Below, in pieces: positions 23,882 through 64,000 of a DNA stretch of 64,000 nucleotides. The DNA is from a virus: the IMG/VR virus record IMGVR_UViG_3300036826_000261, positions 1-64,000 of that record; one strand, written 5' to 3'. A program made the translations under genes and the position numbers. The notes beneath the pieces are model-generated. The model was not told the DNA's origin. It made no database searches and was given only the letters and a program-made list of their open reading frames with translations. Numbering within the stretch: the first letter of the stretch is position 1; each line of letters starts with the position of its first letter.

Positions 23882-25628
23882 TGCGTGGCGCAAGATTCTC
23901 GGCGAAACGCTGGCGGAAGAGCGCGCCAATTGGCAGCGCAGTCGCGAATTGTCGGAAGCGCGATCCGCGCAGATCATCGCCGAGCTGAAGACGCAATCGA
24001 TGCAGCTCGTCACCGAGCTGGCGACGCGCACGTTCGAGTTGGAGCGCAAGCTTGAAGCATTGGTGCATCAGAAGTTGTCCGATGCCGAAGTCATGATAAA
24101 AGATCGCTTGTCCAACTTGCGCGATGGTGCGCCCGGCGAGAAGGGTGAGCGCGGCGAGCGCGGCGAGAAAGGTGATCCGGGTGGCATCGGGTTAACAGGG
24201 CCGCAAGGCTATGCCGGTGAACGCGGCGAAAAGGGTGAACGCGGTGCTGTAGGTGCGCCCGGGCCGCAAGGATCGCAGGGCGAGCGCGGCGAGAAGGGCG
24301 AGCGCGGTGACGTTGGTACTGTCGGGGAGACGGGCGAAAAAGGTGATCGGGGCGAGCGGGGCGAACCAGGAGAAAGAGGCGAACATGGCGAAAAAGGCGA
24401 GCAAGGCGAAAAAGGCGAGCAAGGCGAAAAGGGCGAGCGCGGCGAACAAGGACCGCGCGGTGAAGCGGGTACGCCCGGGCGGCAAGGCGAAAAAGGCGAA
24501 AAAGGCGAAGCGGGCGAGGACGGCAGCGACGGACTGACCATCATCGGACCCGAAGGCCCGTGCGGGCCTTCCGGTCCGCGTGGTGAGCGCGGCGAGACCG
24601 GGCGGGAAGGTCTGCGCGGTCAGCCGGGCGCAATGGGTCCGGTCGGCGGGCAAGGCCCGCGCGGCGAACCGGGCGAGCCCGGTGCACCGGGTGCGGATGG
24701 CCCGGCAGGTCCGGCAGGCTCGGTCGGTCCAAGCGGACCACCGGGCGAGTCCGGCGCACCGGGCGATATCGGCCCGATGGGTCTGCGCGGACCTATGGGC
24801 GAGCGCGGTGAGCGCGGTGAGCGCGGCGCCAAGGGCGATCCCGGCGATATCGTGATCGGTCCGCAAGGGCCTGCAGGCGAACGTGGTGAGCGCGGCGCAC
24901 CGGGCGCGCATGGTCCGACAGGTCCGGTCGGTCCACGCGGTGAACAGGGCAAGCCGGGGCGTGACGGAGTTGACGGAGTACGCGGCGCACCGGGCGCGCA
25001 TGGTCCGACAGGTCCGGCTGGTCCGCGCGGCGAGCCGGGTCTACCTGGGCGTGACGGAGCTGACGGAGCGCGCGGCGCCGATGGCGCACGTGGCGCCGAC
25101 GGCGCGCCGGGGCGTTTGCCGCCGGTCAAGCAGTGGCAAGCCGACGTCGTGTATTATGCCGGCGACGTGGTGAGCCACGAGCGCGGATCGTATCAGGCGC
25201 TGAAAGACACCAGCCGGCAGCCGGGCCGTAATCACGATTGGATTTGCATCGCCAGCGGCGGCGTCGATGCACGGTCGCCGCATGTGCGCGGCACCTATGA
25301 TCCAACGGCCAGCTATCAGGCGCTCGACATCGTTGTCAGCAACGGCGGCAGTTTCATCGCCAGGAAAGACGATCCGGGCGAGCTGCCGGGCGACGGCTGG
25401 CAATTGATGGCGCGGCAAGGCCAGCGCGGCGTTGCCGGCGAGAAGGGCGAACGCGGCGAGCCCGGCGCACCGGGAGCGAAAGGCGAGCCCGGCGAGGTGG
25501 TGTTCAAGGGCTGGACCCATGACTGGAAAAACTTCGTTGCCGTGCCGCTGATGGCCGATGGCAAGCGTGGTCCGACCTTGGAGCTGCGCGGTTACTTCGA
25601 GCAATTCCAGAAAGACACCGATGGCTGA
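23802..25628 (+). CDS. Collagen-like (Gly-X-Y) virion protein
   Basis: Long GEKGERG/GPXG tracts; C-terminal Y..GDVV...GS and GTYDP...Y..LDIV modules. Confidence 0.88.
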   Translation: MTMQPQSNGKADEFLLPPPESTDILLDAWRKILGETLAEERANWQRSRELSEARSAQIIAELKTQSMQLVTELATRTFELERKLEALVHQKLSDAEVMIKDRLSNLRDGAPGEKGERGERGEKGDPGGIGLTGPQGYAGERGEKGERGAVGAPGPQGSQGERGEKGERGDVGTVGETGEKGDRGERGEPGERGEHGEKGEQGEKGEQGEKGERGEQGPRGEAGTPGRQGEKGEKGEAGEDGSDGLTIIGPEGPCGPSGPRGERGETGREGLRGQPGAMGPVGGQGPRGEPGEPGAPGADGPAGPAGSVGPSGPPGESGAPGDIGPMGLRGPMGERGERGERGAKGDPGDIVIGPQGPAGERGERGAPGAHGPTGPVGPRGEQGKPGRDGVDGVRGAPGAHGPTGPAGPRGEPGLPGRDGADGARGADGARGADGAPGRLPPVKQWQADVVYYAGDVVSHERGSYQALKDTSRQPGRNHDWICIASGGVDARSPHVRGTYDPTASYQALDIVVSNGGSFIARKDDPGELPGDGWQLMARQGQRGVAGEKGERGEPGAPGAKGEPGEVVFKGWTHDWKNFVAVPLMADGKRGPTLELRGYFEQFQKDTDG

Positions 25629-26648: not shown

Positions 26649-27025
26649 ATTTCTCGGTGACGAACTATCTGCCGGCGCAGAACATCTTCGGGCGCAGCAT
26701 CACGGTCTACCCGATCAAGTCACAGCCGGGCGAGCCGGCTTATGTCGCTCGCGGCATTCTGGAAACGCGCGGCACCGCGATCCAGACCGATGCCGGCATG
26801 GTGGTGATGTCGGATCAGGAAACCATTCTGGATATCCGTGAAGCCGAGTTCGGCGTGATGCCGGTGCAAGGCGACTTGATCGAGATTCCGGCCGAGAACA
26901 GCATTCCGGCGGCGGGCACCTTCGAGATCACCGATGCGGCGTGGAATGGTGGCGGTGAAGTGACGTTGACGATCCGGCGCTACGAGCCGCCATCGAACAC
27001 CTTCGTGATTCCCACAGCGAGCTGA
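26639..27025 (+). CDS. Head-tail joining protein (lambda gpFII-like)
   Basis: Beta-rich; P.QGD.I and GGGEVTL motifs; position. Confidence 0.7.
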   Translation: MAINFSVTNYLPAQNIFGRSITVYPIKSQPGEPAYVARGILETRGTAIQTDAGMVVMSDQETILDIREAEFGVMPVQGDLIEIPAENSIPAAGTFEITDAAWNGGGEVTLTIRRYEPPSNTFVIPTAS

Positions 27026-27738
27026 TGCGGCTTCCTCCGGAAAACATCGACACCGGCAACACCGGCACGATCCTGGACACCCAAAGCTATGCCTGGGTGC
27101 TGCTCGATTGGGTGTTCAATCGGCTGTCGAATGATCCGTTTTTTGTCAACTTCACGGTGGCGCGGATTTCGTCGGCGCTGCCGGTCGAGGTGTGGAATCA
27201 GGTGCCGTTTCTCGGGGTGTTTCTCACCGACGAACCACTGACGCCGGACAGCGCGATCAACCAGACAACGGTTCGGTTCGCGCACAGTGTGCAGATTGGT
27301 TTTCAGATCATCCTGCGCAACAACGACAGCGACAAGCTTCTGAAAGACCTTGATGCGGTGTCGTGGTTCATTCTGCGCACGCTGTTGCGCGACAGCGACT
27401 TGACCAACATGTTCGACAACGCGTCCGGGGCGGCGTTCGAGGGCTTTACGAGTGGCCGGGTGTCGAAGCCGCGTTATGGTCTTTCCGGCAGCAAGAACGA
27501 AACGCCGGTCGCGGAACGCGTGGTCAGTCTGACCTTCCGGTTCGTGACGATCTGGGCGCCGTACGGTTTCGACGATCTCGATCAGATTGTAGTGACGACG
27601 GCGTTTCCGATCGGCGGCACTGCGCAGGAGCAGGCGGCGGTCGAGCAGGTCACGCTGGTTTACGATTTCACCGAACAGACAGTCACACGCAAGGCTTTTG
27701 GGCGCGCGACCAGCATCGGCCGGGCGCAAGGCGTCTAA
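27025..27738 (+). CDS. Putative tail completion/terminator protein
   Basis: Position before the sheath gene; size. Confidence 0.6.
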   Translation: MRLPPENIDTGNTGTILDTQSYAWVLLDWVFNRLSNDPFFVNFTVARISSALPVEVWNQVPFLGVFLTDEPLTPDSAINQTTVRFAHSVQIGFQIILRNNDSDKLLKDLDAVSWFILRTLLRDSDLTNMFDNASGAAFEGFTSGRVSKPRYGLSGSKNETPVAERVVSLTFRFVTIWAPYGFDDLDQIVVTTAFPIGGTAQEQAAVEQVTLVYDFTEQTVTRKAFGRATSIGRAQGV

Positions 27739-28146: not shown

Positions 28147-29715
28147 ATGCCTGTCTCATTTGCCAACATTCCTGCCAACATAAAGGTCCCATTGTATTGG
28201 GTCGAAGTGGACCCTTCGATGGCGGGTCTGCCAAGTATCAATCTACGCGCACTGTTGGTTGGTATCAAGACCACCGCAGGCGCGGCGCCGGCAGATATTC
28301 CGCTGCCGATCGGCAGTCAGGCGCAAGCCGACGCTGCGTTCGGTCAGGGCAGCGAACTGTCCCGGATGTTCACTGCGTTCTACGCCAACAATTTCGCCAA
28401 CGAGGTATGGGGCTTGCCGGTGGCCGAACCGATCGGCGGTGTCGCGGCGAGCGGCACGATCACGTTCACGACGCCACCGACCGCAGCCGGCACTGTCGAT
28501 TTCTATATCGGCGGCGTGCATGTGCCGGTTAACGTGGCGACGACGGACACCGTGACCACGATGGCGGCGGCAACCGCAGCGGCGATCAACGCGATGGATG
28601 AGTTGCCGGTGACTGCGTCGGCGGCGGTTGGCGTGGTGACGTTGACTTGTCTGTGGAAGGGCATTCTCGGCAACGACATCACGGTGCAAATGAACTACTA
28701 CGGCACGCGCGGCGGTGAAATCACACCGCCCGGGCTCGCCGTGACGCTGCCGGCGACCGGTCAGTTGGCCGGCGGCACCGGCACGCCGATCTTTACCAAT
28801 GCAATCCTCAACATGGGTGAAGAACCGTTCGAGTATGTCGCGATGCCGTACACCGATTCGACGTCGTTGGCGGCGTGGAACCAGGAATACGGTTTCACAG
28901 ATACTGGACGCTGGGGTTGGCAGCGGCAATTGTTCGGCCATGTGTTCTCGGCCAAGCGCGACACCTATTCCAATCTGATCACGTTCGGCGGCACGGTGAA
29001 CTCCGGTGTCGAGTCGATCATGGCGGTCGAAGTCAAGGCGCCGTCGCCGGTGTTCGAATGGACGGCGGCTTATGTGGCCAAGGCGCAGCGCGCTTTGATC
29101 AATGATCCGGCGCGACCGTTGCAGGCGCTGACTTTGAACGAGATCAAGGCCGCGACGATCAACAACCGGTTCAAGTTCTCCGAATTGAACTCGCTGGCGT
29201 CAACCGGGTTCGCGATCCAGAAGATCGGCGGTGATGGTCAGCCGATGATTGCGCGAGAGAACACGACTTATCAGCTCAATCTCTACGGCCAGCCGGACGA
29301 TGCTTATGAGCTGGTCACCACGCTGGCGACGCTGGCCAAGCTGCTGCGCAATCAGCGGCAGGCGATCACCAGCAAGTATCCGCGGCACAAGCTGGCCAAT
29401 GACGGCACCAAGTTCGGACCGGGTCAGGCGATCGTGACGCCGGGTATCATCAAGGGCGAGCTGGTCGCGCAGTACAGTCAGGACATGTTCTCCGGGCTGG
29501 TCGAAGACCTGACCAATTTCAAGGCGCATCTGATTGTCGAGCGCGATCCCGACAATCCGAACCGCGTCAACGTGCTGTACCCGCCCGATTTGGTCAATCA
29601 ACTGCGCATCTTCGCCGTGCTGGCGCAATTCCGTCTGCAGTACGATCGTGGCGTAGACACCGCTATCATCGGACCGGCATCGCCGCCGTTCAACGCCGCG
29701 TCGGGCAACCCATAA
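28147..29715 (+). CDS. Contractile tail sheath protein (Mu gpL-like)
   Basis: SF.NIP.N..VPL.WVE.D, FGQGS.L..M, DPARPLQ.L, KYPRHKLA.DG and AIVTP motifs. Confidence 0.95.
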   Translation: MPVSFANIPANIKVPLYWVEVDPSMAGLPSINLRALLVGIKTTAGAAPADIPLPIGSQAQADAAFGQGSELSRMFTAFYANNFANEVWGLPVAEPIGGVAASGTITFTTPPTAAGTVDFYIGGVHVPVNVATTDTVTTMAAATAAAINAMDELPVTASAAVGVVTLTCLWKGILGNDITVQMNYYGTRGGEITPPGLAVTLPATGQLAGGTGTPIFTNAILNMGEEPFEYVAMPYTDSTSLAAWNQEYGFTDTGRWGWQRQLFGHVFSAKRDTYSNLITFGGTVNSGVESIMAVEVKAPSPVFEWTAAYVAKAQRALINDPARPLQALTLNEIKAATINNRFKFSELNSLASTGFAIQKIGGDGQPMIARENTTYQLNLYGQPDDAYELVTTLATLAKLLRNQRQAITSKYPRHKLANDGTKFGPGQAIVTPGIIKGELVAQYSQDMFSGLVEDLTNFKAHLIVERDPDNPNRVNVLYPPDLVNQLRIFAVLAQFRLQYDRGVDTAIIGPASPPFNAASGNP

Positions 29716-29742
29716 GCATTTCTCAAATAGCAGGAGGATAAA

Positions 29743-30108
29743 GTGGCGACACGCTTCGCAGGGACCGCCTTTGTGTCGGTCGATGGTCAGCAATACGCAT
29801 TGCGCGGCAATTTGACCGTGTCTCCGTCACCGGTCGAGCGCACCATGATCGCCGGCCAGGACGGCGTTCACGGTTACCAGGAATTGCCGCGCGTGCCTTA
29901 CGTGGAAGGTGATTTCTCCACGATCCCCGGCTTCAGTCTTGAGACGCTGTTGACGCAGACCGATTCCACGGTGATCGCGCAATGCGCCAACACTTACGAG
30001 TACGTGCTGCACAACGCGGTGATCAAGGGCGGCTTCGAGGCCAACACCCGCGATGGGCAGGTGCGGATTCGCTGGGAAGGTCTAAATTGCGAAGAAATCC
30101 AACTGTAG
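29743..30108 (+). CDS. Tail tube protein (Mu gpM-like)
   Basis: AGTA...VDG and GQDGVHGY.E.P..P motifs; AGGAGG RBS. Confidence 0.9.
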   Translation: MATRFAGTAFVSVDGQQYALRGNLTVSPSPVERTMIAGQDGVHGYQELPRVPYVEGDFSTIPGFSLETLLTQTDSTVIAQCANTYEYVLHNAVIKGGFEANTRDGQVRIRWEGLNCEEIQL

Positions 30109-30110
30109 CG

Positions 30111-30198
30111 CGTCTAATCGCGACTTAGTCCGCACGTGAAGTCGGACAAGAGCTTAACAGCCGTCTTGCGACAGCCAGAGCGTCGTCGCGATTAGGCG
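30111..30198 (+). ncRNA. Candidate structured intergenic RNA
   Basis: 14-bp closing stem 30111-30124/30185-30198 (one G-U pair) enclosing smaller hairpins. Confidence 0.35.
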
Positions 30199-30248
30199 AC
30201 AAGCAGACATTAGCACAAACCCCTGAAACAAGAAACGGAGCTGGGCCG

Positions 30249-30452
30249 ATGACTCAGCGCACTGACGATCGACGGCTGAAGCATTTCGCCTACACGCATC
30301 TGCCGCCGGCCTATCAAGAAATCAGCAAGCCGTGCTGCGAGCTGGCCGAGCACATGGCGAAGCTGTTGCCGGACAATCCCGAACTGACGGCCGGCTTGCG
30401 CAAGCTGCTCGAAGCCAAGGACTGCTTCGTGCGCGCCCGCATCGAAGGCTGA
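30249..30452 (+). CDS. Small helical-hairpin phage protein
   Basis: F.Y.HLP...Q..SKP and E...GLRKLLEAKDC.VRA motifs; GGAG RBS. Confidence 0.8.
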   Translation: MTQRTDDRRLKHFAYTHLPPAYQEISKPCCELAEHMAKLLPDNPELTAGLRKLLEAKDCFVRARIEG

Positions 30453-30488
30453 ACAAACTCACCGGAAGCCAACACAGGAGTTGTTACC

Positions 30489-30917
30489 ATGTCGATAGCT
30501 GACGCTACCGAAAACGCTATTCTCTTGCTGATTTTCAACGCTACCACCTGGGCGAACTACGCCAACAATGCTTCGACGTCGCCGGAGACCAACATCATTT
30601 GCGCGTTGCACACCGCAGACCCCGGTGACGCCGGCGCGCAGAATACGTCCGAGATCGGCTATTCGTCCTATGCGCGGGTCAACGTCGCGCGCACCTCGGG
30701 CGGCTGGACGGTGACCGCCAACAGCGTCAGTCCGGTCGCCGCGATCAACTTCCCGGCCGGCACCGGCGGCTCCGGCACTGCATCGTTCTTCTCGACCGGC
30801 AAGTCCGGCGGCGGCGCTTCGCCGATTTTGTGGAGCGGTACAGTAACACCTAATATCGTGTGCGGCAGCGGTGTCACGCCGAGCCTCTCGACGGCGACGA
30901 CGATCACGCTTGACTAG
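30489..30917 (+). CDS. Small tail/virion structural protein
   Basis: ENAIL.LIFN, ALHTADPG and Y.SYARV.V.R motifs; AGGAG RBS. Confidence 0.8.
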   Translation: MSIADATENAILLLIFNATTWANYANNASTSPETNIICALHTADPGDAGAQNTSEIGYSSYARVNVARTSGGWTVTANSVSPVAAINFPAGTGGSGTASFFSTGKSGGGASPILWSGTVTPNIVCGSGVTPSLSTATTITLD

Positions 30918-30942
30918 GATGCAGCGTGAAAACCGGGAGATC

Positions 30943-31011
30943 ATGAAGGCGATCGTCTTCATGATTGTCGTCGGGCTGATCGTTTATGTTCTGGCGATGT
31001 GGCTGGGTTGA
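30943..31011 (+). CDS. 22-aa hydrophobic peptide
   Basis: Manual translation MKAIVFMIVVGLIVYVLAMWLG*; GGGAG RBS. Confidence 0.4.
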   Translation: MKAIVFMIVVGLIVYVLAMWLG

Positions 31012-31012
31012 C

Positions 31013-31120
31013 GTGATGCCGTCATTTGCGACGGCGATCACCTTGAGCCAAGCCTGCCAATACCCTGCTTGGCCTCGCCGGGGGCACGCCGTGACACGTC
31101 CCGCCAAACCATGCCTAAGA
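31013..31120 (-). ncRNA. Solo GGY-NN guide RNA cassette 1
   Basis: Minus strand: TAGGCAT-GGTTT-GGCGG-GACGT-GTCAC-GGCGT-GCCCC(C)-GGCGA-GGCCA-AGCAG-GGTAT(T)-GGCAGGC..., ending in a hairpin at 31041-31013. Confidence 0.8.
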
Positions 31121-31126
31121 GCTTTG

Positions 31127-31155
31127 CAGCTAGGTGTGCTCAGCAGCCCTGTCAA
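31127..31155 (-). promoter_or_regulatory. Sigma70-type promoter for solo guide cassette 1
   Basis: TTGACA (31155-31150), 17 nt, TAGCTG; 9 nt upstream of the TAGGCATGG leader. Confidence 0.7.
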
Positions 31156-31175
31156 CCTGTGAAAGTAAATGAATC

Positions 31176-31634
31176 ATGGATAGTTGCAAGGCTATGCGAG
31201 AATGCCTCGAAGAGATGGATGTCGATGGCGCCCGTTCACTCTGGCATCTTATTGCGCCCAACATGCCGCAGCCGAGAAGTAATTACGAGGCCGCTTGCAC
31301 ATTGCACATGGCAAGGACAACCGCAACGTGGATGACACCACGTCAGCGTTATTACAGCCATCGTTGGTGCCTCGATCACGGCGTGATGTCATTGCTGCCG
31401 GATCACGAGAAGCCGGCAGCCGAGCGGATGTATCCGCAAGTCGCAAGTTCGGTCGGCATCTCGGTGAAGGGGATATCCGATCTGACGGCGCCGGTGGTGC
31501 CGCATGTGCGCAGCGCGATGGAGCACGCGGTGCTCGAAGCCTACGCCGACGGCCGCAAGGACGACATTCCGCATATCAAGCTGCGGATGAAAGAGGCGCG
31601 CGCCACGACGATGCGCAAGCTGTTGGGGAAATGA
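31176..31634 (+). CDS. Hypothetical protein
   Basis: Protein-like ORF within the tail operon. Confidence 0.7.
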   Translation: MDSCKAMRECLEEMDVDGARSLWHLIAPNMPQPRSNYEAACTLHMARTTATWMTPRQRYYSHRWCLDHGVMSLLPDHEKPAAERMYPQVASSVGISVKGISDLTAPVVPHVRSAMEHAVLEAYADGRKDDIPHIKLRMKEARATTMRKLLGK

Positions 31635-31647
31635 ATGGAGTGTCCCA

Positions 31648-31920
31648 ATGGCTCAAACGCTGGTGCTGATCGATTACGATCTAGAGACCCACGAAATCAG
31701 GAGGATTATTCATCCGGAGGACGATACGCAGATCGTCCAGCATCCGTGTGAGTCCGGCAATCATGAGCGATGGGGCCGCGTCGAAGCGGATCACAAGCGC
31801 TTTCCGATCGTGATCGATGAAGCAGGAAACGCCCGGCCGCTGTACGGTTTGCAGGAATGCATCGACGAAGTTGAGCGCGTCACCGGACGTCGGCCGCGAA
31901 TGATGCCACATAACGAGTAG
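31648..31920 (+). CDS. Hypothetical protein
   Basis: GGAG RBS. Confidence 0.65.
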   Translation: MAQTLVLIDYDLETHEIRRIIHPEDDTQIVQHPCESGNHERWGRVEADHKRFPIVIDEAGNARPLYGLQECIDEVERVTGRRPRMMPHNE

Positions 31921-31925
31921 CCACG

Positions 31926-34900
31926 ATGGCTACTTATGTTTTTGTTGTCAGTGGCACGACGACCGGCGCACCGCCCGGTGATTATCAGGCCACGGGCTCG
32001 ACCTGGGACGTTATCGGCGGTGGTGGTTCGGGCGCAGTTGCCAGTGGTGGCGTGCAGCCGAATGCTGGTGGCGGTGGTGGTTGGTCGCAGATCGTCAACG
32101 TCGCGTGGTCGTCGGCGCAGACCGTGCAAATCGGTCAAGGCGGCGCGGCGAAATCGACCACCAACACGGCCGGCGCGGCGGGCACCGCGACATGGGCACG
32201 CATCGACGGTGGCGGCACCGCGCCTGCGACGACCGCGCAAGGCGTCTTAGCCAATCCCGGCAGTGGCGGCCTCGTCGGCAGCGGGACTGGCACGGCCGGC
32301 GGTTCGGTCACCGGCGCAGTTGGCACCACGACGCGCGCGGGCGGCAATGCCGGCGCTGAAAATGATACATCGTACGCCGGTCCCGGCGCTGGCGGCGCAG
32401 CCGGTCCGGGCGGCGCGGGCGGCACGGGTGGCGCTGATTCGCAGAACGGTCCGTACGGCGGCTCAGCTGGCGGCGGCGCCAATGGCGGCGGCGGTGCAGG
32501 CGGCGCCACCACGGGCGGGCAAGTTGGCACCCAAGGCGGTGCGTCGATCTCGACCGGCAATCAGACCGGCGCATCGGGCGGCACCACCAATACGGCGCCG
32601 ACAGCCGCGAACGCGGGCAGCAATGGATCAGGCGGCGGCGGTGGCTCTGGTAGTACTTCGTCGGGCACGGCAGCCGGGCGCGGTGGCGACGGCGGCGCCG
32701 GCAAGGAATACGATTCGTCGCACGGCTCCGGCGGTGGCGGCGGATCGGGTGGCGGCAACACCGCAGGCGGCACCAACGGTCAAGGCGGCACCGGTGGTCT
32801 GTACGGCGGTGGTGGCGGCGCATCGGGCTCCGGCAGTTCGGGTCTCGGCACTTCCGGCGCAGGCGCGCAGGGTCTGCTCGCGATCACCTACACGCCGAGC
32901 GGCGGGGCGCCGACGTGGGCCTTTGTCGGCGTCACAAGTGTCGTATCAGTTACAGCAGCAACGCACACGCTGAGCGAACCCGCAGGTGTGCAGCAGGGCG
33001 ACTTGCTCGTTGCTGTGATTTCATCGCGTATTGCTTCCACGACATCGATCACCTTGCCATCTGGCTGGTCGCTGGTCGCTGAGGCAAAGAACAATAACAC
33101 GCTCACGACGTCGAGTGCCGCAGCATCCGGCATGATGGCGTACTGCGTGCGGGGCGCCTCGGCGCCAAGCTTTACTTTTACGCACCCGACTGCACCCAGT
33201 GTTGCGCTAGGCTATGTCGTTGCTTATCGCAACAACGATCCGAGCCCTTTGGACGTCCATACGGCTTGGACCACAGCGACGAACACGACAGCTGTTTCCG
33301 GCGCAGGCGTCACTACGGGTTTTGCTTCAGACCTGATCGTGGTTGGCACCTGTGGCGGTCAGGAGGCGACGTGGACAGCGTTGTCTGCGGCAACCGATCC
33401 GTCCGGGGCTAGCGGCACTGGTGGCCAGACCGGAAACCCGGTGACGGGGTCTTGGCTGGAGCGCGCTGAAAACACTACTACGACCGGCGCCGACACGTCG
33501 TTGGGAATCTTCGATGCGGTACGCGGCACGGCCGGCGCGACTGGCAATATATCGGTCACAGCCGGGACGGCTGCGGCGCATGTGCTCGTCATTGGCGCCT
33601 TCAAGCTTGCGCCGCCCGCTGGCAATAACGGCGCGGCGGCGGGCACTGGTACTGCGAGCGCGGTCGGCACCGGGCTCAAGATCGCGCAGGGTGCCGCAGC
33701 GGGCACATCTACCGCGAGCGCGACCGGCAGTGGTGCGGGCAGCGGCCAAGGCGTCGCGAGCGGCACCGGTGCAGCGAGCGCGGTCGGCATCGGGCTCAAG
33801 ATTGCGCAGGGTGCTGCAGCGGGCACATCTACCGCGAGCGCGACCGGCAGCGGCGGCGCTGTTGCTCCGGCTTTCGTGCAGCACGTTACGCCGAACGCGT
33901 TTCAAGGCGGCAGTTCTGCAAGTGCGACCGGCGCGGCGGTGGGCGTCGGCAATTGCGTCGTCGGCGCGGTGTCGTGGCAGCGCGCCGACACGCTCGATCT
34001 CACGTCGGTCACCGACGACAAGGGCAACACTTACACGATCGTGGATCGTGGAGGCGATCCAGGTAACGCACAGACTCACGTCACTTTCATTCTCTGGAAT
34101 ATCACCAACGGCCCTTCGACGATCACGGCGAACTTCAGCCAGTCTGAAGGCATCAACGACATCGTCTGGGATGAATATTCGGGAGTTCTGACTACCGATC
34201 CGCGCGATGGTCACGCGATCAATCTGCAAAGTCCCGCCAGCAACACCACCGATGCGGCGACGTCGGGCAGCATTACGACCACCGTCGCCAACGATCTGAT
34301 CTGGTCGTCGATCGTTGATTGCCAAGGCTCCAGTCAGAACGGCTACGCGGCGGGCACCGGCTACACCAAGCGCGGCACGTTCTGGCTTTCTGGTTACGGC
34401 GCGACCGAAGACAAGACCCTGGCCACGCCGGGCAGTGTCGCCGGCACGTGGACGCTGACCACTTCGTCGGTTGTTGCGGTTGCGGTGATCGCGCTGAAGC
34501 CGGCTTTGCCGGCTGGTGCCGGCAGCGGTGCGGCTGCGGGCACCGGCGCCGCCAACGGCGTCGGACAATCGACGGCGGTGGCTGCCGGGTCGGCCGCCGG
34601 CACTTCGACCGCGAGCGCGACCGGCAGCGGAGCGAGCAACAGCACGGGGTCGAGCGCAGGCACCGGCGCAGCGAGCGGCGTCGGGCGCAGCACATTCCTC
34701 GCCACGGCAGTCGCGACCGGCACGGGCGCGGCCTCGGCGACCGGGACTGCGGCAGCGGCCGGCACAGGCAATGCGTCGGGCGCGGGTGCAGCGTCCGCCA
34801 CCGGGGCCGCCACGGTGGTGGCGACCGGCAGCACCGCCGGCACCAGCAGCGCGCAGGCGCAAGCCGCCGGGCAGGGCGCGACGTCCGGAACCGGCACGGC

Positions 34901-36650
34901 AACGGGCATTGGGCGGGCCACAGCCGCCGCTACAGCGGCGTCCGCCGCGACCGGCACCGCGACAGCCGCCGGCACCGGGATCGTCTCAGCGCCCGGCGCC
35001 GCTGCGGGAACAGGCGCTGCAGCGGCCACCGGGGCGGCGCTGTTCAGCGCCACCGGCAGCGCGGCGGGAACCGGTATTGCGCTGGGGGTGGCGCCGAGCC
35101 TTGGCAGCGCCACCGGCATCGGTGCGGCCAGCGCGGTCGGACAATCGACAGCGGCGGCGGTCGGCAGCGCGACGGCGACCGGCACCGCCACGGCGACCGG
35201 TACCGGCATCATCTTTTCGCCTGGGGCGGCGGCCGGCACCGGCGCGGCCAACGCCACCGGATCGGGCGTCGGCGTCACACAAGGCGCTGCCGCCGGCACC
35301 GGCGCGGCGTCCGGGGTCGGACAGTCTACAGCGGTTGCGACCGGATCGGCGGCGGGCGTCGGGGTCGCGTCAGGGGTCGGGCTCGCCAGTGCGCAGGGCG
35401 CTGCCGCCGGCCTCGGCGCGGCGTCCGGGATCGGGCGATCGACGGCGCTGGCGACCGGCAACGCGGCCGGCACAGGCACCGCGTCTGGAATTCAGCAAGG
35501 CACCTCGATCGCGGTTGCCGCCGGCACCGGGTCGGCACAGGCGCAAGCCGCTGGGCAAGGTGCCGCTGCCGGTCTCGGCGCGGCCAGCGCGACCGGCCAA
35601 GCGACGGCGCGCAGCCCGGGCAATGCCGCCGGTACCGGCGCGGCACAGGCGCGAGCCGCCGGGCAAGGGGCGACGTCCGGCGTTGGAACGGCTTCTGGCA
35701 TCGGCGCCAGCCTCGCCAGTGCGGTCGGCGCAGCGGCCGGCACTGGCACAGCGGCGGCGCAATCGTTGCAGGGTGGGCTCGGCAGCGCCGCCGGCACCGG
35801 TGTGGCGAGCGGCATCGGGCGATCGACGGCGGCAGCCGTCGGCAGTGCGGCTGGTCTCGGGTCGGCGGCGGCGGTCGCCAGCAGCCTGTCGATTGGCGCG
35901 GCCACCGGCACCGGCGTGGCTTCGGCGGTTGGCGTCGGGGCGAGCAATTCGGTCGGCGCATCTGCCGGAGTCGGCAGCGCGGCGGCGCAATCGCTGCAGG
36001 GCACGGTCGGCGTTGCCGCCGGCACCGGGACGGCCACTGGCGCCGGGGCGGCGTTGGTTCGGCAGCCGGGCAGCGCGGCCGGGATCGGCGCAGCCAACGC
36101 GGTCGGCACCGGCATCTTTGTCGCGGTCGGGTTTAGCTCCGGTCTCGGCGGCGACACCGGCGAGGCGACGGCGCTGGCGTCGGCGCAAGGCCATGCCGTC
36201 GGCACCAGCACGGCGACGGCGCCGGGCAGCGGGTTCGAGATCGGCGACGGCAGCGCCGCCGGTCACGGCGTCGCGACCGGTGTCGCCAAATCGGTCAATG
36301 CCGGCGTCGGCGCGGCGGCCGGGCTCGGCACGCTGCAGGCGGTGGCGCGGGTTATCGGTGCAGGCGTCGCGCAGGAAGCGTCCGATGTCGCCAATGGCGT
36401 CGCTTATTGGGTGCCGGAAGGCACCGCGCAGGAAGCGCCCGACACCGCGCACGGCACCAGCGGCAAGCGCTTCAGCGAGGATTTCATTGCCGAGATCGCG
36501 CCGCCGCCGGAGCTGGCGGGCGAGATCGAACCGACACCGGCGTTCACCGGGCGCAAGCGCTCGGCCGATCTGGTGGCGCAACTGTCCGCCGCGTCCGCGT
36601 TCACTGGGCGCACGCGCAACAGCCAAGATTTTATCGGACGCATGCCATGA
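31926..36650 (+). CDS. 1574-aa Gly/Ala/Thr-rich virion-associated protein
   Basis: Gly-rich N-terminus, two beta-rich domains (GDLLVAVI...LPSGW; VTDDKGNTY) and dozens of G.AAGTG.AS.VG repeats. Confidence 0.85.
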   Translation: MATYVFVVSGTTTGAPPGDYQATGSTWDVIGGGGSGAVASGGVQPNAGGGGGWSQIVNVAWSSAQTVQIGQGGAAKSTTNTAGAAGTATWARIDGGGTAPATTAQGVLANPGSGGLVGSGTGTAGGSVTGAVGTTTRAGGNAGAENDTSYAGPGAGGAAGPGGAGGTGGADSQNGPYGGSAGGGANGGGGAGGATTGGQVGTQGGASISTGNQTGASGGTTNTAPTAANAGSNGSGGGGGSGSTSSGTAAGRGGDGGAGKEYDSSHGSGGGGGSGGGNTAGGTNGQGGTGGLYGGGGGASGSGSSGLGTSGAGAQGLLAITYTPSGGAPTWAFVGVTSVVSVTAATHTLSEPAGVQQGDLLVAVISSRIASTTSITLPSGWSLVAEAKNNNTLTTSSAAASGMMAYCVRGASAPSFTFTHPTAPSVALGYVVAYRNNDPSPLDVHTAWTTATNTTAVSGAGVTTGFASDLIVVGTCGGQEATWTALSAATDPSGASGTGGQTGNPVTGSWLERAENTTTTGADTSLGIFDAVRGTAGATGNISVTAGTAAAHVLVIGAFKLAPPAGNNGAAAGTGTASAVGTGLKIAQGAAAGTSTASATGSGAGSGQGVASGTGAASAVGIGLKIAQGAAAGTSTASATGSGGAVAPAFVQHVTPNAFQGGSSASATGAAVGVGNCVVGAVSWQRADTLDLTSVTDDKGNTYTIVDRGGDPGNAQTHVTFILWNITNGPSTITANFSQSEGINDIVWDEYSGVLTTDPRDGHAINLQSPASNTTDAATSGSITTTVANDLIWSSIVDCQGSSQNGYAAGTGYTKRGTFWLSGYGATEDKTLATPGSVAGTWTLTTSSVVAVAVIALKPALPAGAGSGAAAGTGAANGVGQSTAVAAGSAAGTSTASATGSGASNSTGSSAGTGAASGVGRSTFLATAVATGTGAASATGTAAAAGTGNASGAGAASATGAATVVATGSTAGTSSAQAQAAGQGATSGTGTATGIGRATAAATAASAATGTATAAGTGIVSAPGAAAGTGAAAATGAALFSATGSAAGTGIALGVAPSLGSATGIGAASAVGQSTAAAVGSATATGTATATGTGIIFSPGAAAGTGAANATGSGVGVTQGAAAGTGAASGVGQSTAVATGSAAGVGVASGVGLASAQGAAAGLGAASGIGRSTALATGNAAGTGTASGIQQGTSIAVAAGTGSAQAQAAGQGAAAGLGAASATGQATARSPGNAAGTGAAQARAAGQGATSGVGTASGIGASLASAVGAAAGTGTAAAQSLQGGLGSAAGTGVASGIGRSTAAAVGSAAGLGSAAAVASSLSIGAATGTGVASAVGVGASNSVGASAGVGSAAAQSLQGTVGVAAGTGTATGAGAALVRQPGSAAGIGAANAVGTGIFVAVGFSSGLGGDTGEATALASAQGHAVGTSTATAPGSGFEIGDGSAAGHGVATGVAKSVNAGVGAAAGLGTLQAVARVIGAGVAQEASDVANGVAYWVPEGTAQEAPDTAHGTSGKRFSEDFIAEIAPPPELAGEIEPTPAFTGRKRSADLVAQLSAASAFTGRTRNSQDFIGRMP

Positions 36651-38070: not shown

Positions 38071-38257
38071 GAAGGGTGACCCGTTCCCAGATCACCCTTC
38101 ACTTGTGCCGACCATGACGAGACCGGCCCGGCCAGACGGCGCCAAGGCCAAACCCCGACAAACCACGCCTGCCAAGTCTGGCTTTGCTTGGCCAAATCTT
38201 ACCGCGCCAGACCTTGTCGCGCCGAACCGCGCCTGTCCTCGCCTGCCATGCCTAAGA
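38071..38257 (-). ncRNA. Solo GGY-NN guide RNA cassette 2 (two units)
   Basis: Minus strand: TAGGCATGGCA, 14 pentamers, GGCA, about 8 pentamers; ends in hairpin GAAGGGTGA/TCACCCTTC (38071-38100) followed by ATGCTTTT. Confidence 0.85.
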
Positions 38258-61362: not shown

Positions 61363-62241
61363 ATGGCGAAAAAGGCACCCGTCAGTGAAATCATCGAAAT
61401 CCAAGCTATCGAAATGGCGTCGCTGGATTTCCATGTGGTCGGCACCAGCCCGTTCATCATGCATCGCTTCAGTCAGAAGGCGTGGCAGGAATTGCTGCTG
61501 CCGTCGATCCGCGAAAACCGCGCTAGTCTCGAACAGAAGCTCAAGCATGATCCGTATGCAGAATTTCGTGGCGCGTTCTATCGCAACAGCAATCCGCGCG
61601 CCAAGACGGCGTACCATATTCCAAACGGCGCGTTTCACGGCGCGATCGCCAGCGCCGCGCTCGACATGCCGGGTGCCAAGAAGGCGCAGATCGAGCGGTT
61701 GACCAAGATCACCAGCGTCAACATCGAACTGTATGGCATCCCGAAAATCTTTTGCAGCATGGTGCGTAACAGCGACATCTCGCGCACGCCAGATGTGCGC
61801 ACCCGGCCGATCTTCCCGCGCTGGGCGTGCACGGTTTCGGTGCGCTACGCGAAGAACGCGTTGACGGCCAAAGCCGTCGCCAATCTGTTCGGCGCGGCGG
61901 GCGAGATCATCGGCATCGGTGATTGGCGCGGTCAGAAGGGCGGACCGTTCGGCGCGTTCCGCACCAACGTGTCGGTGAACGATAAAGAGTTCAAGAGCAT
62001 CTTGAAGGAAGGCCGCGTCGCGCAATTGAAAGCTTACGACAAACCGTTGTTCTACGATGAAGACACGGAAGAAATTTTAACGTGGTTCGCCACCGAGGTG
62101 CGCCGCCGTGAGTTGGAAGGCAAGATGCGCAGCGATAACGTCAAGGAGTTTCGCGTTATCACCGAGCGCGGCAAGGAGCGCGGCAACGGCGAGTTGGTGA
62201 GCCTTGACGACAAGCGGCGGACCCGTCGAAAGGCCGCGTGA
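61363..62241 (+). CDS. Stand-alone RAMP/Cas7-like RNA-binding effector protein
   Basis: First-strand motif VVGTSPFIMH, helix motif IP..AF.GAI..AA, RPIFPRW and C-terminal Gly-rich loop AGEIIGIGDWRGQKGGPFG.F; GGGAG RBS; adjacent to the GGY-NN array. Confidence 0.8.
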   Translation: MAKKAPVSEIIEIQAIEMASLDFHVVGTSPFIMHRFSQKAWQELLLPSIRENRASLEQKLKHDPYAEFRGAFYRNSNPRAKTAYHIPNGAFHGAIASAALDMPGAKKAQIERLTKITSVNIELYGIPKIFCSMVRNSDISRTPDVRTRPIFPRWACTVSVRYAKNALTAKAVANLFGAAGEIIGIGDWRGQKGGPFGAFRTNVSVNDKEFKSILKEGRVAQLKAYDKPLFYDEDTEEILTWFATEVRRRELEGKMRSDNVKEFRVITERGKERGNGELVSLDDKRRTRRKAA

Positions 62242-62735
62242 TGGCGAAAGCCACCAAACACGACCGCATCAAAGCGGCGTTGGAAGCGATCAGGCGCTCG
62301 CATCGCGGGCGCTTGACGGCGCGGGCCGTGGTCGAGGCGGCCAAAAATCCTAGGCACCCGTTGCACAGTGAATTTGAATGGAACAACCAGAAAGCAGCGG
62401 ATCAGCAACGCTTGGAGCGTGCGCGCGAACTAATCAGATACGTCACGGTCGTGGTCGTTGATGCAACGCGTAAAGTCGAAACACGATTTTATGCGCACGA
62501 TCCGCGAACGCCGCATCGTGAAGGCTATGTCAGCATCTTGGAGATGAACCGCCGCGATGCTGAACAAGATGTGGTCAACGCTATCGCGATCTGTCAATCG
62601 ACGATCGATCGCGCGCTCAGCAAAGCGGAATTTCTCAGCGCGAAGCATCGTGGTGTTTCACGATTGTTGAAAAATGCAGTTGCTACCCTTGCCGCCGCGC
62701 ATGATCTGCTCGAAGGCTCGGCGGCAGCGGCGTGA
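62238..62735 (+). CDS. Partner protein of the RAMP-like gene
   Basis: LT...VV.AA.....PLH..FEW....AA...RL..AR.LIR motif; GTGA overlap with the RAMP gene. Confidence 0.8.
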   Translation: MMAKATKHDRIKAALEAIRRSHRGRLTARAVVEAAKNPRHPLHSEFEWNNQKAADQQRLERARELIRYVTVVVVDATRKVETRFYAHDPRTPHREGYVSILEMNRRDAEQDVVNAIAICQSTIDRALSKAEFLSAKHRGVSRLLKNAVATLAAAHDLLEGSAAAA

Positions 62736-62740
62736 AGTCA

Positions 62741-62961
62741 TAGGCATGGCAGGCTAGGCAAGGTGCGGCCCGGCCGGAGTAGGTTCGGTGCGGCAAGGCA
62801 GGCATGGCCCGGGAGACGCGGTGAAGCGTGTCCGTGATCTGGTAGCGTCGGGTAAGGCGGCGTTGGATGGGGTGAGGCGAGGCAGGCTTGGTCAGGTCTG
62901 ACGAGACTGGGCGCGGTAGGTTTTGGCGCGGTACGGCAAGGCGTGATGCGGTAAGGCAGGC
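62741..62961 (+). ncRNA. GGY-NN guide array, block 1 (three units)
   Basis: TAGGCATGGCAGGC leader; GGCA delimiters at 62748, 62797, 62881 and 62955; 5-nt periodicity. Confidence 0.85.
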
Positions 62962-63219
62962 ATGGCCAGAAACACAGCGGATAAGGTTCTCGAAAACAAG
63001 TTGCGGCTGATCGCCAAACGGCGGGGTTTGTTTCTTTCGAAATCCCGTCGTCGCGATCCGTTTGCGCTCGACTTTGGTTATGAGTTGAGAGACGCGCAAC
63101 AGCACGTCATCGAAACAGCGTGCAGTCTTACTCGAATCGAAAACTTGTTAGCTCTCGGTCGGACGGGGCGGAAACGTTTAACAGTCGAAGGATGGCGTCA
63201 CATCATCCTTGGTAAGTAG
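62962..63219 (+). CDS. Small basic protein embedded in the guide array
   Basis: KV.EN.LR..A.R.GL.L.KSRRRDP.A.D.G motif; non-repetitive sequence between the two array blocks. Confidence 0.7.
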   Translation: MARNTADKVLENKLRLIAKRRGLFLSKSRRRDPFALDFGYELRDAQQHVIETACSLTRIENLLALGRTGRKRLTVEGWRHIILGK

Positions 63220-64000
63220 GCATGGCAGGCGTGGCCGGGCCGGGTTGTCCCCGGTGTGGCAGAGCATGGCAGCGCAGGGTTGACATGGCAGGGCAGGCAG
63301 GGTCCGTCGTGGTCGCGCGGGATTGGGCGGGGCAAGGCACGGCACGATGCTGGTCTGGCGAGGCGTGGCAGGCATGGCTGGATCAGGCGTGACGAAGCTT
63401 GGTGTAGCTAGGCCGGGTGCAGTGTAGGCATGGCGAGGCAGGCGCGGCGGGACAAGGTCCGATATGGCGTGGCGCGGTCTGGTTCGGTCTGGCCGGGTTT
63501 GGCAGGCAAGGTGCGTCGAGGCCAAACATGGTGTGACAAGGTACGGCGCGGCCTGATCTGGGCTCGACTGGGCAGGCGCGGTGGGTTCTGGCTCGACATG
63601 GTTAGGCGAGGCCCGGTGATGCCCGGCATGTTGAAGTGCGTCCTGGCAGGCGTGGCGGGGGTGCGTGCGAGGCGGGACCGGGCAAGGTCGGGCACGTTAT
63701 ATGGTCTGGCTGGGCACGGCTTGGCGGGTCACGGCAAGGCACGGCCGGCAAGGTTTGTCCGGAACCGGTTTGGCTTGGCGAGATGCGATTAGGCGAGGCG
63801 AAGCGAGGCCGGCTAAGCGTGACTTGGTCGGGTAGACGTGGCCGGGCACGGTAGCGGCGTGGATCGGCCGGCGACGCTAGGCTTGTCGTCGATCGGCATG
63901 ACATGGCGCGGCACGGCGAGGCGTGGTTCGGCCGGCGCGATTAGGTGTGGTCGGAATCGGCATGGCTCGGTGTCGCGTGGTCTGGCGTGGCTCGGCTGGG
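63217..64000 (+). ncRNA. GGY-NN guide array, block 2 (at least 11 units, truncated by the window end)
   Basis: Leader TAGGCATGGCAGGC; GGCA/GGCC delimiters at 63224, 63292, 63367, 63437, 63501, 63571, 63645, 63743, 63807, 63866 and 63930; many units are exactly 4+5n nt. Confidence 0.9.

What the first reader, a model, noticed from the sequence alone, without database searches (positions are those of the whole stretch)
30825..31155. Solo guide decodes to the adjacent tail gene at codon positions 1-2; the phage's own copy is synonymously recoded
Seen: the NN pairs of the minus-strand cassette, reverse-complemented, read AT CT TG TC GG AC GT AC CC AA AT. The gene 200 nt away (30825-30857) reads ATT TTG TGG AGC GGT ACA GTA ACA CCT AAT ATC (ILWSGTVTPNI). 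Skipping each third base, 9/11 dinucleotides (19/22 nt) match. The only two mismatches are Leu CTn vs TTG and Ser TCn vs AGC, so the guide is compatible with the identical peptide. Leu, Ser and Arg are the only residues that can change codon positions 1-2 silently. The stretch is also unusually A/T-ending for this GC-rich gene. Hand binomial estimate: about 2e-9 per position at uniform composition. Inference: the code is NN-skip-NN and so is insensitive to wobble mutations; the guide targets the ancestral allele in related phages while this phage has escaped by recoding.
Basis: partly seen in the sequence, partly recalled or inferred. Interest (0 to 1): 0.96.

Follow-up and report, generated by a model that had tools for sequence, protein, structure and literature searches.

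The report
Solo VIPR guide beside recoded target
A soil phage carries a stand-alone guide-RNA gene of the recently described VIPR silencing system; its code spells the neighbouring tail-fibre-like gene as rival phages carry it, while the phage's own copy differs only by silent leucine and serine codon switches, so this is a new example of a known system with one neat twist.

Summary
On the minus strand, 31112-31056 is 11 NN+GGY units. Read with one skipped base, their NN pairs match 30825-30856 at 19/22. None of 4000 shuffled guides reached 19.

The kind is already published as VIPR, in 2026 bioRxiv preprints: a Vipr RAMP protein plus vrRNAs made of GGY/NN pentamers, read by a '1 nt skip rule' in which the skipped base falls on the wobble position.

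This 72.7-kb phage has:
- vipr (61363-62241);
- an accessory gene;
- a 2.4-kb staggered array;
- two solo cassettes.

The 22/22 pattern hits 28 sites in 26 IMG/VR contigs, and all 28 lie in frame in homologues of the adjacent Gp80-like gene. It hits none in 596 Gb of prokaryote genomes.

The own allele's three mismatches are all silent (Leu CTN>TTG, Ser TCN>AGC). They pair with the guide's 3' units.

Not shown: expression, and whether 19/22 escapes. That is 86% NN identity, above the 80% cut-off the preprints use to call targets.

This scan has noted VIPR before on other DNA: 67 notes in at least 62 genomes, several of them 'guide beside recoded target'.

Verdict: a new member of a known kind.

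The parts
31056..31112 (-). Guide region of the solo vrRNA: 11 NN+GGY units (NN = AT TT GG GT AC GT CC GA CA AG AT, 5'->3' on the minus strand).
   Evidence: parse; 7/11 perfect GGY, two 6-letter units; 19/22 to 30825, skip 1 only.
31113..31118 (-). Leader TTAGGC. With the first unit it forms TTAGGCATGG, which is shared with the second solo cassette. TAGGCATGG also occurs 4 times in the main array.
   Evidence: TAGGCATGG: 4 on the plus strand in the main array, 2 on the minus strand at 38254 and 31117; alignment.
31127..31155 (-). Promoter-like stretch: TTGACA (31155-31150), a 17-nt spacer, then TAGCTG (31132-31127). The same layout precedes the second solo cassette.
   Evidence: Sequence; alignment of the two upstream regions (TTGACAG and CTA.CT conserved). 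The consensus scanner did NOT call a promoter, because the second hexamer is poor.
31052..31055 (-). 4-letter unit AGGC, the punctuation that ends guide blocks in this phage's arrays.
   Evidence: 4-letter units AGGC/CGGC cut all arrays into blocks of about 9-16 units.
31013..31041 (-). 3' hairpin after the guide (stem GUGAU.GCCGUC / GACGGCAUCAC). It is not followed by a T run.
   Evidence: 63-nt fold -28.6 kcal/mol, z -4.84, 0 of 200 shuffles as stable; no terminator called.
30825..30857 (+). The phage's own copy of the guide's footprint: codons ATT TTG TGG AGC GGT ACA GTA ACA CCT AAT ATC (ILWSGTVTPNI), scoring 19/22. The mismatches fall in Leu and Ser codons and pair with vrRNA units 10 and 8.
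30489..30917 (+). Gp80-like fibre/virion gene (142 aa) that holds the footprint.
   Evidence: PF23140, E 1e-8; phrog_240; 111 relatives confirmed by tblastn in IMG/VR, best 80 kept.
30918..31175 (.). 258-nt insertion between the gp80-like gene and the next gene. It holds a 22-codon hydrophobic ORF (30944-31011, plus strand) and the solo cassette (minus strand).
   Evidence: the next gene follows within 39 nt in 28 of 38 unique sequences where it was found; no pentamer cassette in the larger gaps of 8 relatives.
61363..62241 (+). vipr, the RAMP-type effector gene (292 aa). It lies 30.2 kb from the solo cassette.
   Evidence: PDB 36pp_D, SUSP1 Vipr, E 0.0046; profile E 1.1e-7, alignment over the thumb Arg and the GDWR G-loop; R148, D187, W188 and R189 invariant in 21 sequences; 671 homologues.
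62238..62735 (+). Accessory (vap-like) gene, 165 aa, overlapping the end of vipr.
   Evidence: homologue beside vipr and arrays in 11 other loci; phrog_15946; viral hypothetical families only.
62741..64000 (+). Main staggered vrRNA array. It runs on to about 65170 of the contig, beyond the window, and is interrupted by an 85-aa ORF at 62962-63219.
38110..38253 (-). Second solo cassette, with two guide blocks of 14 and 11 units. It has the same leader and promoter-like layout and ends in a terminator hairpin at 38102-38069.
   Evidence: (block 1 scores 21/28 at 38359-38399 in the adjacent gene; 3 of 200 shuffles do as well).

Best explanation
The cassette is a stand-alone ('solo') VIPR guide-RNA gene. 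It seems to have its own promoter-like signal, leader and 3' hairpin, and it is inserted antisense just downstream of a Gp80-like virion gene in a VIPR-positive phage.

**Inferred from the published mechanism.** Vipr protomers made from the locus 30 kb away would coat the RNA, one per pentamer. They would bury each GGY and present the NN pairs. The filament would then bind double-stranded DNA in which the NN pairs match two bases out of every three, forming a gapped R-loop that blocks transcription.

**Shown here.** The guide's 22 informative letters equal codon positions 1-2 of the conserved ILWSGTVTPNI segment, as carried by many related phages.

**Inferred function.** The guide probably silences the late/tail operon of related phages or prophages that meet this phage in one cell. 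The phage's own allele differs at three read letters. All three are silent switches between the two codon families of Leu and Ser, and they pair with the guide's 3' units. Those are the units that engage first in the solved SUSP1 system. I read this as self/non-self discrimination.

**Not shown.** That the own allele really escapes. The order of events (recoding first, or guide first) is also open.
For: **Kind.**
- The vipr homologue matches the solved SUSP1 Vipr (E 0.0046 alone, 1.1e-7 with a 21-sequence profile). The alignment puts R148/D187/W188/R189 on R138/D177/W178/R179, the residues that paper 10.64898/2026.04.26.720927 says hold G2, G1, G2 and Y3.
- vipr and the 165-aa gene sit beside GGY/NN arrays in 14 and 11 other IMG/VR loci.

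**Guide.**
- It has 11 units, within the published range of 9-16.
- Its boundaries are set by the leader and a 4-letter unit.
- Its GGY quality of 7/11 lies within the main array's range: mean 0.71, with 8 of 29 blocks at or below 0.64.

**Code.** Only skip 1 gives a match, and 0 of 4000 shuffles reach 19/22.

**Target.**
- 28 of 28 exact IMG/VR sites are in frame in gp80 homologues.
- There are 0 exact sites in the 596-Gb prokaryote collection.
- The other 31 guide blocks of this phage give 0 hits at >=90% in the 1.8 Mb of fetched loci. The solo guide gives 59.

**Self allele.**
- All 3 mismatches are synonymous and lie in vrRNA units 8 and 10 of 11.
- In SUSP1, R-loops grow 3'->5' from subunits 8-12.
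- The own-type pattern occurs in 2 IMG/VR contigs, against 26 for the guide type.

**Layout.**
- The cassette is an insertion absent from relatives.
- Three own guides have near-matches in the genome, and each lies next to its near-match: solo31-gp80, solo38-adjacent gene, and first array guide-vipr. The other 29 blocks have none above chance.
Against: - **No evidence of transcription.** The one RNA run gave contigs only at 30380-30635 and 31691-31841. The promoter scanner called nothing.
- **Imperfect repeat units.** Four of 11 units lack a perfect GG, and two units have 6 letters (2/11, against 16/375 in the main array). The preprint says that perturbing GGY motifs abolished silencing.
- **The own allele may still be bound.** It keeps 86% NN identity. 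That is above the >=80% threshold used to call natural targets, and above any self hit reported in the preprints' sets. It equals the family median. I found no mismatch-tolerance data in the main texts.
- **No sign of family-wide escape selection.** TTR at the footprint Leu is 5/46 and AGY at the Ser is 22/54, both inside the range of other Leu/Ser columns.
- **G001.** It has the own-type allele and a vipr, but no gp80 guide was found in its main array.
- **VIPR type.** I could not establish the type or its vrRNA processing, because the supplements are closed.
Confidence: 0.75

Rival explanations
1. Self-regulation. The solo vrRNA is aimed at the phage's own late operon. A partly mismatched (19/22) Vipr-vrRNA complex sits on the 3' part of the own gp80-like gene and tunes or times transcription into the downstream tail genes.
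For: - 86% NN identity exceeds the >=80% cut-off used for target calls.
- The guide lies 205 nt from its own site.
- Two other guides also sit next to their near-matches.
Against: - Perfect 22/22 sites exist in 26 other viral contigs. A self-regulator would be expected to match its own gene best.
- All three mismatches are silent and sit at the guide's 3' units, where the SUSP1 complex engages first.
- The preprints report no self hits >=80% in their sets.
Confidence: 0.1
2. Decaying relic. The cassette is a former vrRNA that is no longer made or no longer loads Vipr. Its match to gp80 alleles is history, not function.
For: - 4 of 11 units have a degenerate GGY, and two units have 6 letters.
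- No promoter or terminator was called.
- There is no RNA cover.
- No conserved type II-like tail was identified.
Against: - All 22 informative letters are intact against natural alleles. Drift would hit NN as readily as GGY.
- GGY quality is inside the range of the main array.
- The -35 TTGACA, spacing and leader are shared with the second solo.
- The 3' hairpin is stable (z -4.84).
Confidence: 0.12
3. Chance resemblance between a G-rich intergenic stretch and a nearby coding sequence.
For:
- One unit needs an extra letter.
- The global test of all arrays against the own genome shows no general excess: 9-pair windows scoring 15/18 number 13 against 9.0 expected, and those scoring 16/18 number 3 against 1.3.
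Against: - 0 of 4000 shuffles reach 19/22.
- Both mismatched codons are the alternate synonymous family.
- The full guide equals 28 natural sites, all in frame in homologues of the adjacent gene, and none in 596 Gb of prokaryote genomes.
Confidence: 0.01

Closest known systems
Solo (orphan) vrRNAs of VIPR systems: F5 satellites and SUSP1-like phages (bioRxiv 10.64898/2026.10.15.759431; abstract, sections 6, 8, 9 and 17, and passages read)
   Same: - A stand-alone GGY/NN guide far from any vipr. The paper's caller labels an array 'solo' when the nearest Vipr lies beyond 20 kb; here it is 30.2 kb away.
- The target is wobble-aligned and lies inside a coding sequence of a competing element.
- The self-match score is lower than the non-self score, which the paper reads as avoidance of autoimmunity.
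   Different: - The carrier here is VIPR-positive.
- The target is a virion (Gp80-like) gene of sibling phages, not vipr, vrRNA loci, satellites or REP decoys.
- The guide sits directly beside the carrier's own mismatched allele.
- All mismatches are synonymous Leu/Ser family switches. I did not find this point in the main texts of the three VIPR preprints (term searches; supplements closed).
VIPR systems with staggered vrRNA arrays (bioRxiv 10.64898/2026.04.26.720920; Results, Discussion and the Fig. S18 legend read)
   Same: - A Vipr RAMP gene plus one accessory gene, followed by a long tail-less array of YNNGG units.
- One guide ends where the next begins. Here this is marked by 4-letter units.
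- Guide blocks of about 9-16 units, read by the 1-nt skip rule.
   Different: - This Vipr is 292 aa, against about 200 aa for SUSP1.
- I could not assign one of the seven types.
- The array is about 2.4 kb and holds an embedded 85-aa ORF.
Type II VIPR of Escherichia phage SUSP1 (PDB 36pp; bioRxiv 10.64898/2026.04.26.720927; Results read)
   Same: - The residues that hold the GGY motif are conserved (thumb Arg and the G-loop Asp-Trp-Arg).
- There is one pentamer per protomer.
- The geometry is 2 paired letters plus 1 skipped letter on the target.
   Different: - Sequence similarity is confined to about 47 residues (E 1.1e-7 with a profile).
- No pseudoknot tail was identified. The solo ends in a plain hairpin instead.
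Free-standing homing endonucleases of T-even phages that cut a relative's allele while the linked own allele is resistant ('marker exclusion'; recalled from memory, no call)
   Same: A weapon gene lies next to the carrier's own resistant copy of the target. Weapon and immunity are therefore inherited together in crosses between related phages.
   Different: Protein-guided DNA cutting and gene conversion, against RNA-guided transcriptional silencing. There is no evidence here that the cassette spreads by recombination.

Membership tests
VIPR (Viral Interference Programmable Repeat) | A Vipr protein (minimal RAMP) is encoded in the same genome. | tested here: met
   61363-62241. PDB 36pp_D (SUSP1 Vipr): E 0.0046 with the single sequence and 1.1e-7 with profile A1.
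VIPR (Viral Interference Programmable Repeat) | The residues that hold the GGY motif (SUSP1 R138, D177, W178, R179) are conserved. | tested here: met
   The HMMER alignment puts tRPIF and GiGDWR on YRPIF and GVGDWR. R148, D187, W188 and R189 are invariant in 21 homologues. The residue roles come from the paper.
VIPR (Viral Interference Programmable Repeat) | The vrRNA has 9-16 tandem pentamers with conserved GGY and variable NN. | tested here: met
   11 units at 31112-31056. 7 of 11 have a perfect GGY and two units have 6 letters. The same make-up is seen in 29 main-array blocks.
VIPR (Viral Interference Programmable Repeat) | The target is read by the 1-nt skip rule, with skipped bases on codon wobble positions. 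| tested here: met
   Skip 1 gives 19/22; skips 0, 2, 3 and 4 give <=15. 28 of 28 exact IMG/VR sites are in frame with the skip at codon position 3. This is computational only.
VIPR (Viral Interference Programmable Repeat) | An accessory vap gene lies next to vipr. | tested here: inconclusive
   A 165-aa gene overlaps the end of vipr and is conserved beside vipr in 11 other loci. No family name was found. Whether it is one of vap1-6 needs the closed supplements.
VIPR (Viral Interference Programmable Repeat) | The RNA is expressed and bound by Vipr, and it represses a matching target. | not testable with these tools
   Only two short RNA-library contigs fall on neighbouring genes, and none on the cassette.
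Solo vrRNA (as defined in 10.64898/2026.10.15.759431, Methods passage) | [quoted passage not shown] | tested here: met
   vipr starts 30.2 kb from the cassette on the same 72.7-kb contig. The phage itself is VIPR-positive, unlike the paper's VIPR-null phages.
Type II VIPR vrRNA | An invariable 3' tail of about 40 nt with a pseudoknot follows the last repeat. | tested here: inconclusive
   A stable plain hairpin follows the guide. The tails of the two solos align poorly. I had no type II tail sequence to compare with.
Diversity-generating retroelement (variable region plus template repeat) | A second near-identical copy of the variable stretch lies nearby, together with a reverse transcriptase. 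| tested here: not met
   No repeat of 30780-30917 was found within 29500-32500. I considered this at the outset because of the A/T-rich 3' end of the gene, and dropped it.

The most novel reading that the evidence does not exclude
Guide and resistant allele form a linked weapon-plus-antidote block. The vrRNA silences the common allele of a virion gene in sibling phages that share the cell. The immediately adjacent own allele is immune through switches between the two codon families of Leu and Ser. These switches, with Arg, are the only synonymous changes a wobble-blind reader can see. Tight linkage keeps recombinants from inheriting the guide without the immunity, and could let the block spread through a mosaic phage population, much as homing-endonuclease 'marker exclusion' does. 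If so, VIPR should leave a footprint of codon-family choice at six-fold-degenerate residues, and 'synonymous escape is impossible' would need qualifying.
Probability: 0.3. Interest if true: 0.65.

Novelty: new member of a known kind. Interest (0 to 1): 0.4.

Why it matters
The system itself is therefore not new.

What this locus adds is a clean natural self/non-self pair. One guide meets 26 natural contigs with a perfect target, and its own neighbouring allele differs only by three silent letters at the two six-fold-degenerate residues.

The VIPR preprints argue that skipping the wobble base closes off synonymous escape. This allele shows the loophole: Leu, Ser and Arg. It also gives a ready-made test of how many mismatches Vipr tolerates, and where.

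The guide-beside-own-allele layout occurs three times in this genome, and other agents of this scan have noted it on other DNA. I did not find it described in the main texts of the preprints. It may say something about how such guides are kept or spread.

Tried and rejected
- **DGR idea.** I thought of a diversity-generating retroelement because the 3' end of the gene is A/T-rich. I dropped it: there is no template copy.
- **Known RNA families.** Rfam gave no family at gathering score in the window, and there are no tRNAs.
- **Global decoding test.** All array windows of 9 pairs against the own genome gave no clear excess over shuffles. The decoding claim therefore does not generalise to self-targets.
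- **Second solo cassette.**
  - Relatives of the adjacent gene's first 200 aa: none found in IMG/VR.
  - Exact 14-pair pattern: 0 hits.
  - Its non-self target therefore stays unknown.
- **Other VIPR phages.**
  - The guides of G001 and G004 do not hit gp80.
  - A strict period-5 search for gp80-type guides in all fetched loci printed nothing. It also misses the own cassette because of its 6-letter unit, so it is a weak negative.
- **Promoter and terminator scan.** No promoter or terminator was called at the cassette.
- **RNA run X7.** Its contigs lie only at 30380-30635 and 31691-31841, and there is no cover over the cassette. This says nothing either way. DNA runs X1 and X2 hold the stretch unchanged, but they may be its source.
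- **Family tree.** The careful tree did not finish. Only the quick, poorly resolved tree was used.
- **Accessory protein.** The Atlas look-up gave unnamed viral clusters only.
- **Supplements of the preprints.** They are closed. They may hold type assignments, tail logos, mismatch data and self-targeting tables that bear on my claims about what is or is not in print.
Full report
**What is in the sequence.**

The window is the first 64 kb of a 72,692-nt single-contig virus record with 61.6% G+C.

On the minus strand, 31112-31056 consists of eleven units of two variable letters followed by GGY: AT-GGT, TT-GGC, GG-GAC, GT-GTC, AC-GGC, GT-GCC, CC-(C)GGC, GA-GGC, CA-AGC, AG-GGT, AT-(T)GGC. The block is preceded by TTAGGC and closed by a four-letter unit AGGC.

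The same grammar fills about 2.4 kb at 62741-65170 on the plus strand, and 38253-38110 on the minus strand:
- Four-letter units AGGC/CGGC cut these arrays into blocks of mostly 9-16 pentamers.
- TAGGCATGG opens both solos and occurs four times in the main array.

**Is the match more than chance?**

With one skipped base the guide scores 19/22 at 30825-30856. This is the single best place on both strands of the genome; the next best scores 16. Skips of 0, 2, 3 or 4 bases give at most 15. None of 2000 pair-order shuffles and none of 2000 letter shuffles reaches 19.

The guide's ends did not have to be chosen, because the leader and the four-letter unit set them. An alternative parse continues for two more units, which match nothing.

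The two mismatched codons are Leu TTG (guide CT) and Ser AGC (guide TC). The guide is therefore compatible with the very peptide ILWSGTVTPNI.

I fetched relatives of the 142-aa product from IMG/VR. This product matches Pfam PF23140, a podophage fibre protein, and lies just after the tail sheath and tube genes. The fetch kept 80 loci, of which 79 gave a gene.

In a codon alignment of these 79 loci:

| Score out of 22 | Loci |
|---|---|
| 22 | 4 (L121, L123, L137, L148) |
| 21 | 8 |
| 20 | 19 |
| 19 | 11 |
| 18 | 12 |
| below 18 | 25 |

Scanning IMG/VR for the exact degenerate pattern gave 28 sites in 26 contigs. All 28 are in frame inside gp80 homologues of 48-78% identity. Twenty-seven encode ILWSGTVTPNI and one encodes MLWSGTVTPNI.

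Three controls bear on this result:
- The same pattern has no match in the 596-Gb collection of prokaryote genomes.
- The pattern of the phage's own allele (TT..AG) occurs in only two IMG/VR contigs.
- The phage's other 31 guide blocks serve as internal controls. They give no hit at 90% or more in the 1.8 Mb of loci I had fetched, while this guide gives 59.

**What it is.**

A phmmer search of the 324-aa ORF upstream of the main array hit one solved structure, 'SUSP1 Vipr protein' (36pp_D, E 0.0046). That led to three 2026 bioRxiv preprints, which describe VIPR:
- Vipr is a small RAMP protein. It coats vrRNAs made of 9-16 YNNGG repeats, buries each GGY and presents the NN pairs.
- The NN pairs bind double-stranded DNA by a '1 nt skip rule'. 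The skipped base mostly falls on the codon wobble position.
- The outcome is transcriptional silencing of competing mobile elements.

I read Results and Discussion of 10.64898/2026.04.26.720920, Results of 10.64898/2026.04.26.720927, and several sections of 10.64898/2026.10.15.759431.

The evidence that this phage carries such a system:
- With a 21-sequence profile the match to SUSP1 Vipr improves to E 1.1e-7.
- The alignment puts the invariant R148, D187, W188 and R189 on R138, D177, W178 and R179. The structure paper says these residues hold G2, G1, G2 and Y3.
- Homologues of this vipr are found in 14 other IMG/VR loci, and homologues of the overlapping 165-aa gene in 11, next to pentamer arrays.
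- The four-letter punctuation fits the 'staggered arrays' whose vrRNAs overlap by one nucleotide (Fig. S18 legend).

The cassette lies 30.2 kb from vipr. It therefore meets the distance criterion for a 'solo' vrRNA (Methods passage).

**Anatomy of the solo cassette.**

Relatives have the next gene, a homologue of 31176-31634, within 39 nt of the gp80 stop in 28 of the 38 unique sequences where it was found. The window has a 258-nt gap. The larger gaps of eight relatives hold small ORFs, not pentamers. The cassette, together with a 22-codon hydrophobic ORF at 30944-31011, is therefore an insertion.

Both solo cassettes share this layout:
- TTGACA, a 17-nt spacer and a TA.CT. hexamer, eight or nine letters before TTAGGCATGG. 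The consensus scanner called no promoter at either cassette.
- A stable 3' hairpin (z -4.84 and -4.72). Only the second is a called terminator.

Perfect GGY units number 7 of 11. That is within the main array's spread (mean 0.71, with 8 of 29 blocks at or below 0.64). Two 6-letter units in 11 is more than the array's 16 in 375.

**Self against non-self.**

The vrRNA pairs with the sense strand of the gene. The three mismatches to the own allele fall in vrRNA units 10 and 8 of 11. In the family, variation is concentrated in footprint codons 1-4, which pair with units 8-11. GTVTPNI, which pairs with units 1-7, is nearly fixed. In SUSP1, subunits 8-12 near the 3' end are resolved first and the R-loop grows 3' to 5'. 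The mismatches therefore sit where they might matter most. That is an inference carried over from another VIPR type.

For 'recoding':
- All three mismatches are silent.
- The nearest relatives carry CT/TC.
- TT/AG alleles appear in at least four separate places on a quick, poorly resolved tree.

Against 'escape' as a settled claim:
- 19/22 is 86% NN identity. The preprints call natural targets at 80% or more and report no self hit at that level.
- The own allele sits at the family median.
- I found no mismatch-tolerance data in the main texts.
- Alternate codon families at the footprint (Leu 5/46, Ser 22/54) are within the range of other Leu and Ser columns.
- G001, a complete 62.7-kb relative with the own-type allele, has a vipr (40% identity), but no gp80 guide was found in its main array. 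G004, which has a 22/22 allele, also has a vipr, at 61% identity.

The A/T-ending codons of the footprint (GC3 4/11 against 0.80 for the gene; 2.4% of windows in other genes are as low) are unexplained. The published mechanism reads no identity at the skipped base.

**A pattern within this genome.**

Of 32 guide blocks of eight or more units, three have an own-genome match that shuffles rarely or never equal:

| Guide | Score | Near-match site | Shuffles doing as well |
|---|---|---|---|
| This one (solo31) | 19/22 | adjacent gp80-like gene | 0 of 200 |
| Block 1 of the second solo | 21/28 | 38359-38399, in the adjacent gene | 3 of 200 |
| First block of the main array | 16/18 | 61555-61580, inside vipr | 0 of 200 |

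Each lies next to its near-match. For the first array block, one of 120 Vipr homologues carries a peptide compatible with that guide.

The preprints describe vipr-targeting guides, and lower self than non-self scores for vrRNA-targeting guides. I did not find the guide-beside-own-allele layout, or Leu/Ser family switching, in their main texts. The supplements were closed.

Other agents of this scan have reported the same layout on other DNA: 67 VIPR notes in at least 62 genomes, several of them 'solo guide beside recoded target'. Those are unchecked notes and not independent evidence.

**Context and limits.**

- Prophage-borne relatives of the gp80 gene occur in records of Aminobacter niigataensis (21/22), Phyllobacterium and Sphingobium. 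Of 14 loci, 10 score 18 or more. The host is probably an alphaproteobacterium, but this is only a guess.
- The stretch is present unchanged in soil-metagenome DNA runs that may be its source. One metatranscriptome run gave two short contigs on neighbouring genes and none on the cassette, which settles nothing.
- A fold comparison of Vipr could not be run.

**Verdict.**

The reading is right on the code and on the target, and unproven on escape. The locus is a new member of a known kind. Its small but testable twist is synonymous self/non-self discrimination through six-fold-degenerate codons, with guide and resistant allele linked.

Noticed in passing
window 38110-38253 (-), with 38359-38399 (+): A second solo vrRNA cassette with two guide blocks (14 and 11 units), the same leader and promoter-like layout, and a terminator hairpin. 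Block 1, read in the same sense as the gene, matches the start of the adjacent large gene at 21/28, and two of the seven mismatches are Leu CT/TT switches. No relative or exact target was found in IMG/VR.
   Followed up: partly
window 62748-62796 (+), with 61555-61580 (+): The first guide block of the main array matches the phage's own vipr gene at 16/18 (0 of 200 shuffles do as well). The guide spells FAEYRGAFY where the own protein has YAEFRGAFY. One of 120 Vipr homologues carries the guide-compatible peptide.
   Followed up: partly
window 62962-63219 (+): An 85-aa ORF with no family match is embedded between two parts of the vrRNA array. Its ATG lies in an AGGCATGGC motif like those that open array sections.
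   Followed up: no
window 30944-31011 (+): A 22-codon hydrophobic ORF (a single membrane-helix-like peptide) shares the 258-nt insertion with the solo cassette. It is absent from the relatives examined.
   Followed up: no
window 30825-30857 (+): The footprint's third codon positions are unusually A/T: GC3 is 4/11, the lowest window in a gene with GC3 0.80. The published mechanism reads no identity at skipped bases, so this is unexplained. A recombination patch from a lower-GC relative is possible.
   Followed up: partly
L211 10764 and 11208; L219 1514 and 1958: Two viral contigs carry tandem gp80 paralogues 444 nt apart, both with a perfect 22/22 site for this guide.
   Followed up: no
window 24280-25500 and 50990-53090 (+): Many 9-nt-period (Gly-X-Y, collagen-like) tandem repeats lie in several ORFs. 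There is also a 1574-aa glycine-rich ORF at 31926-36650.
   Followed up: no
G001 26970-27355 (-) and G004 25127-25382 (+): Two related phage records carry their own vipr plus short GGY/NN arrays with different leaders (no TAGGCATGG). None of their 7 and 4 parsed guides hits gp80 or this phage above chance.
   Followed up: partly
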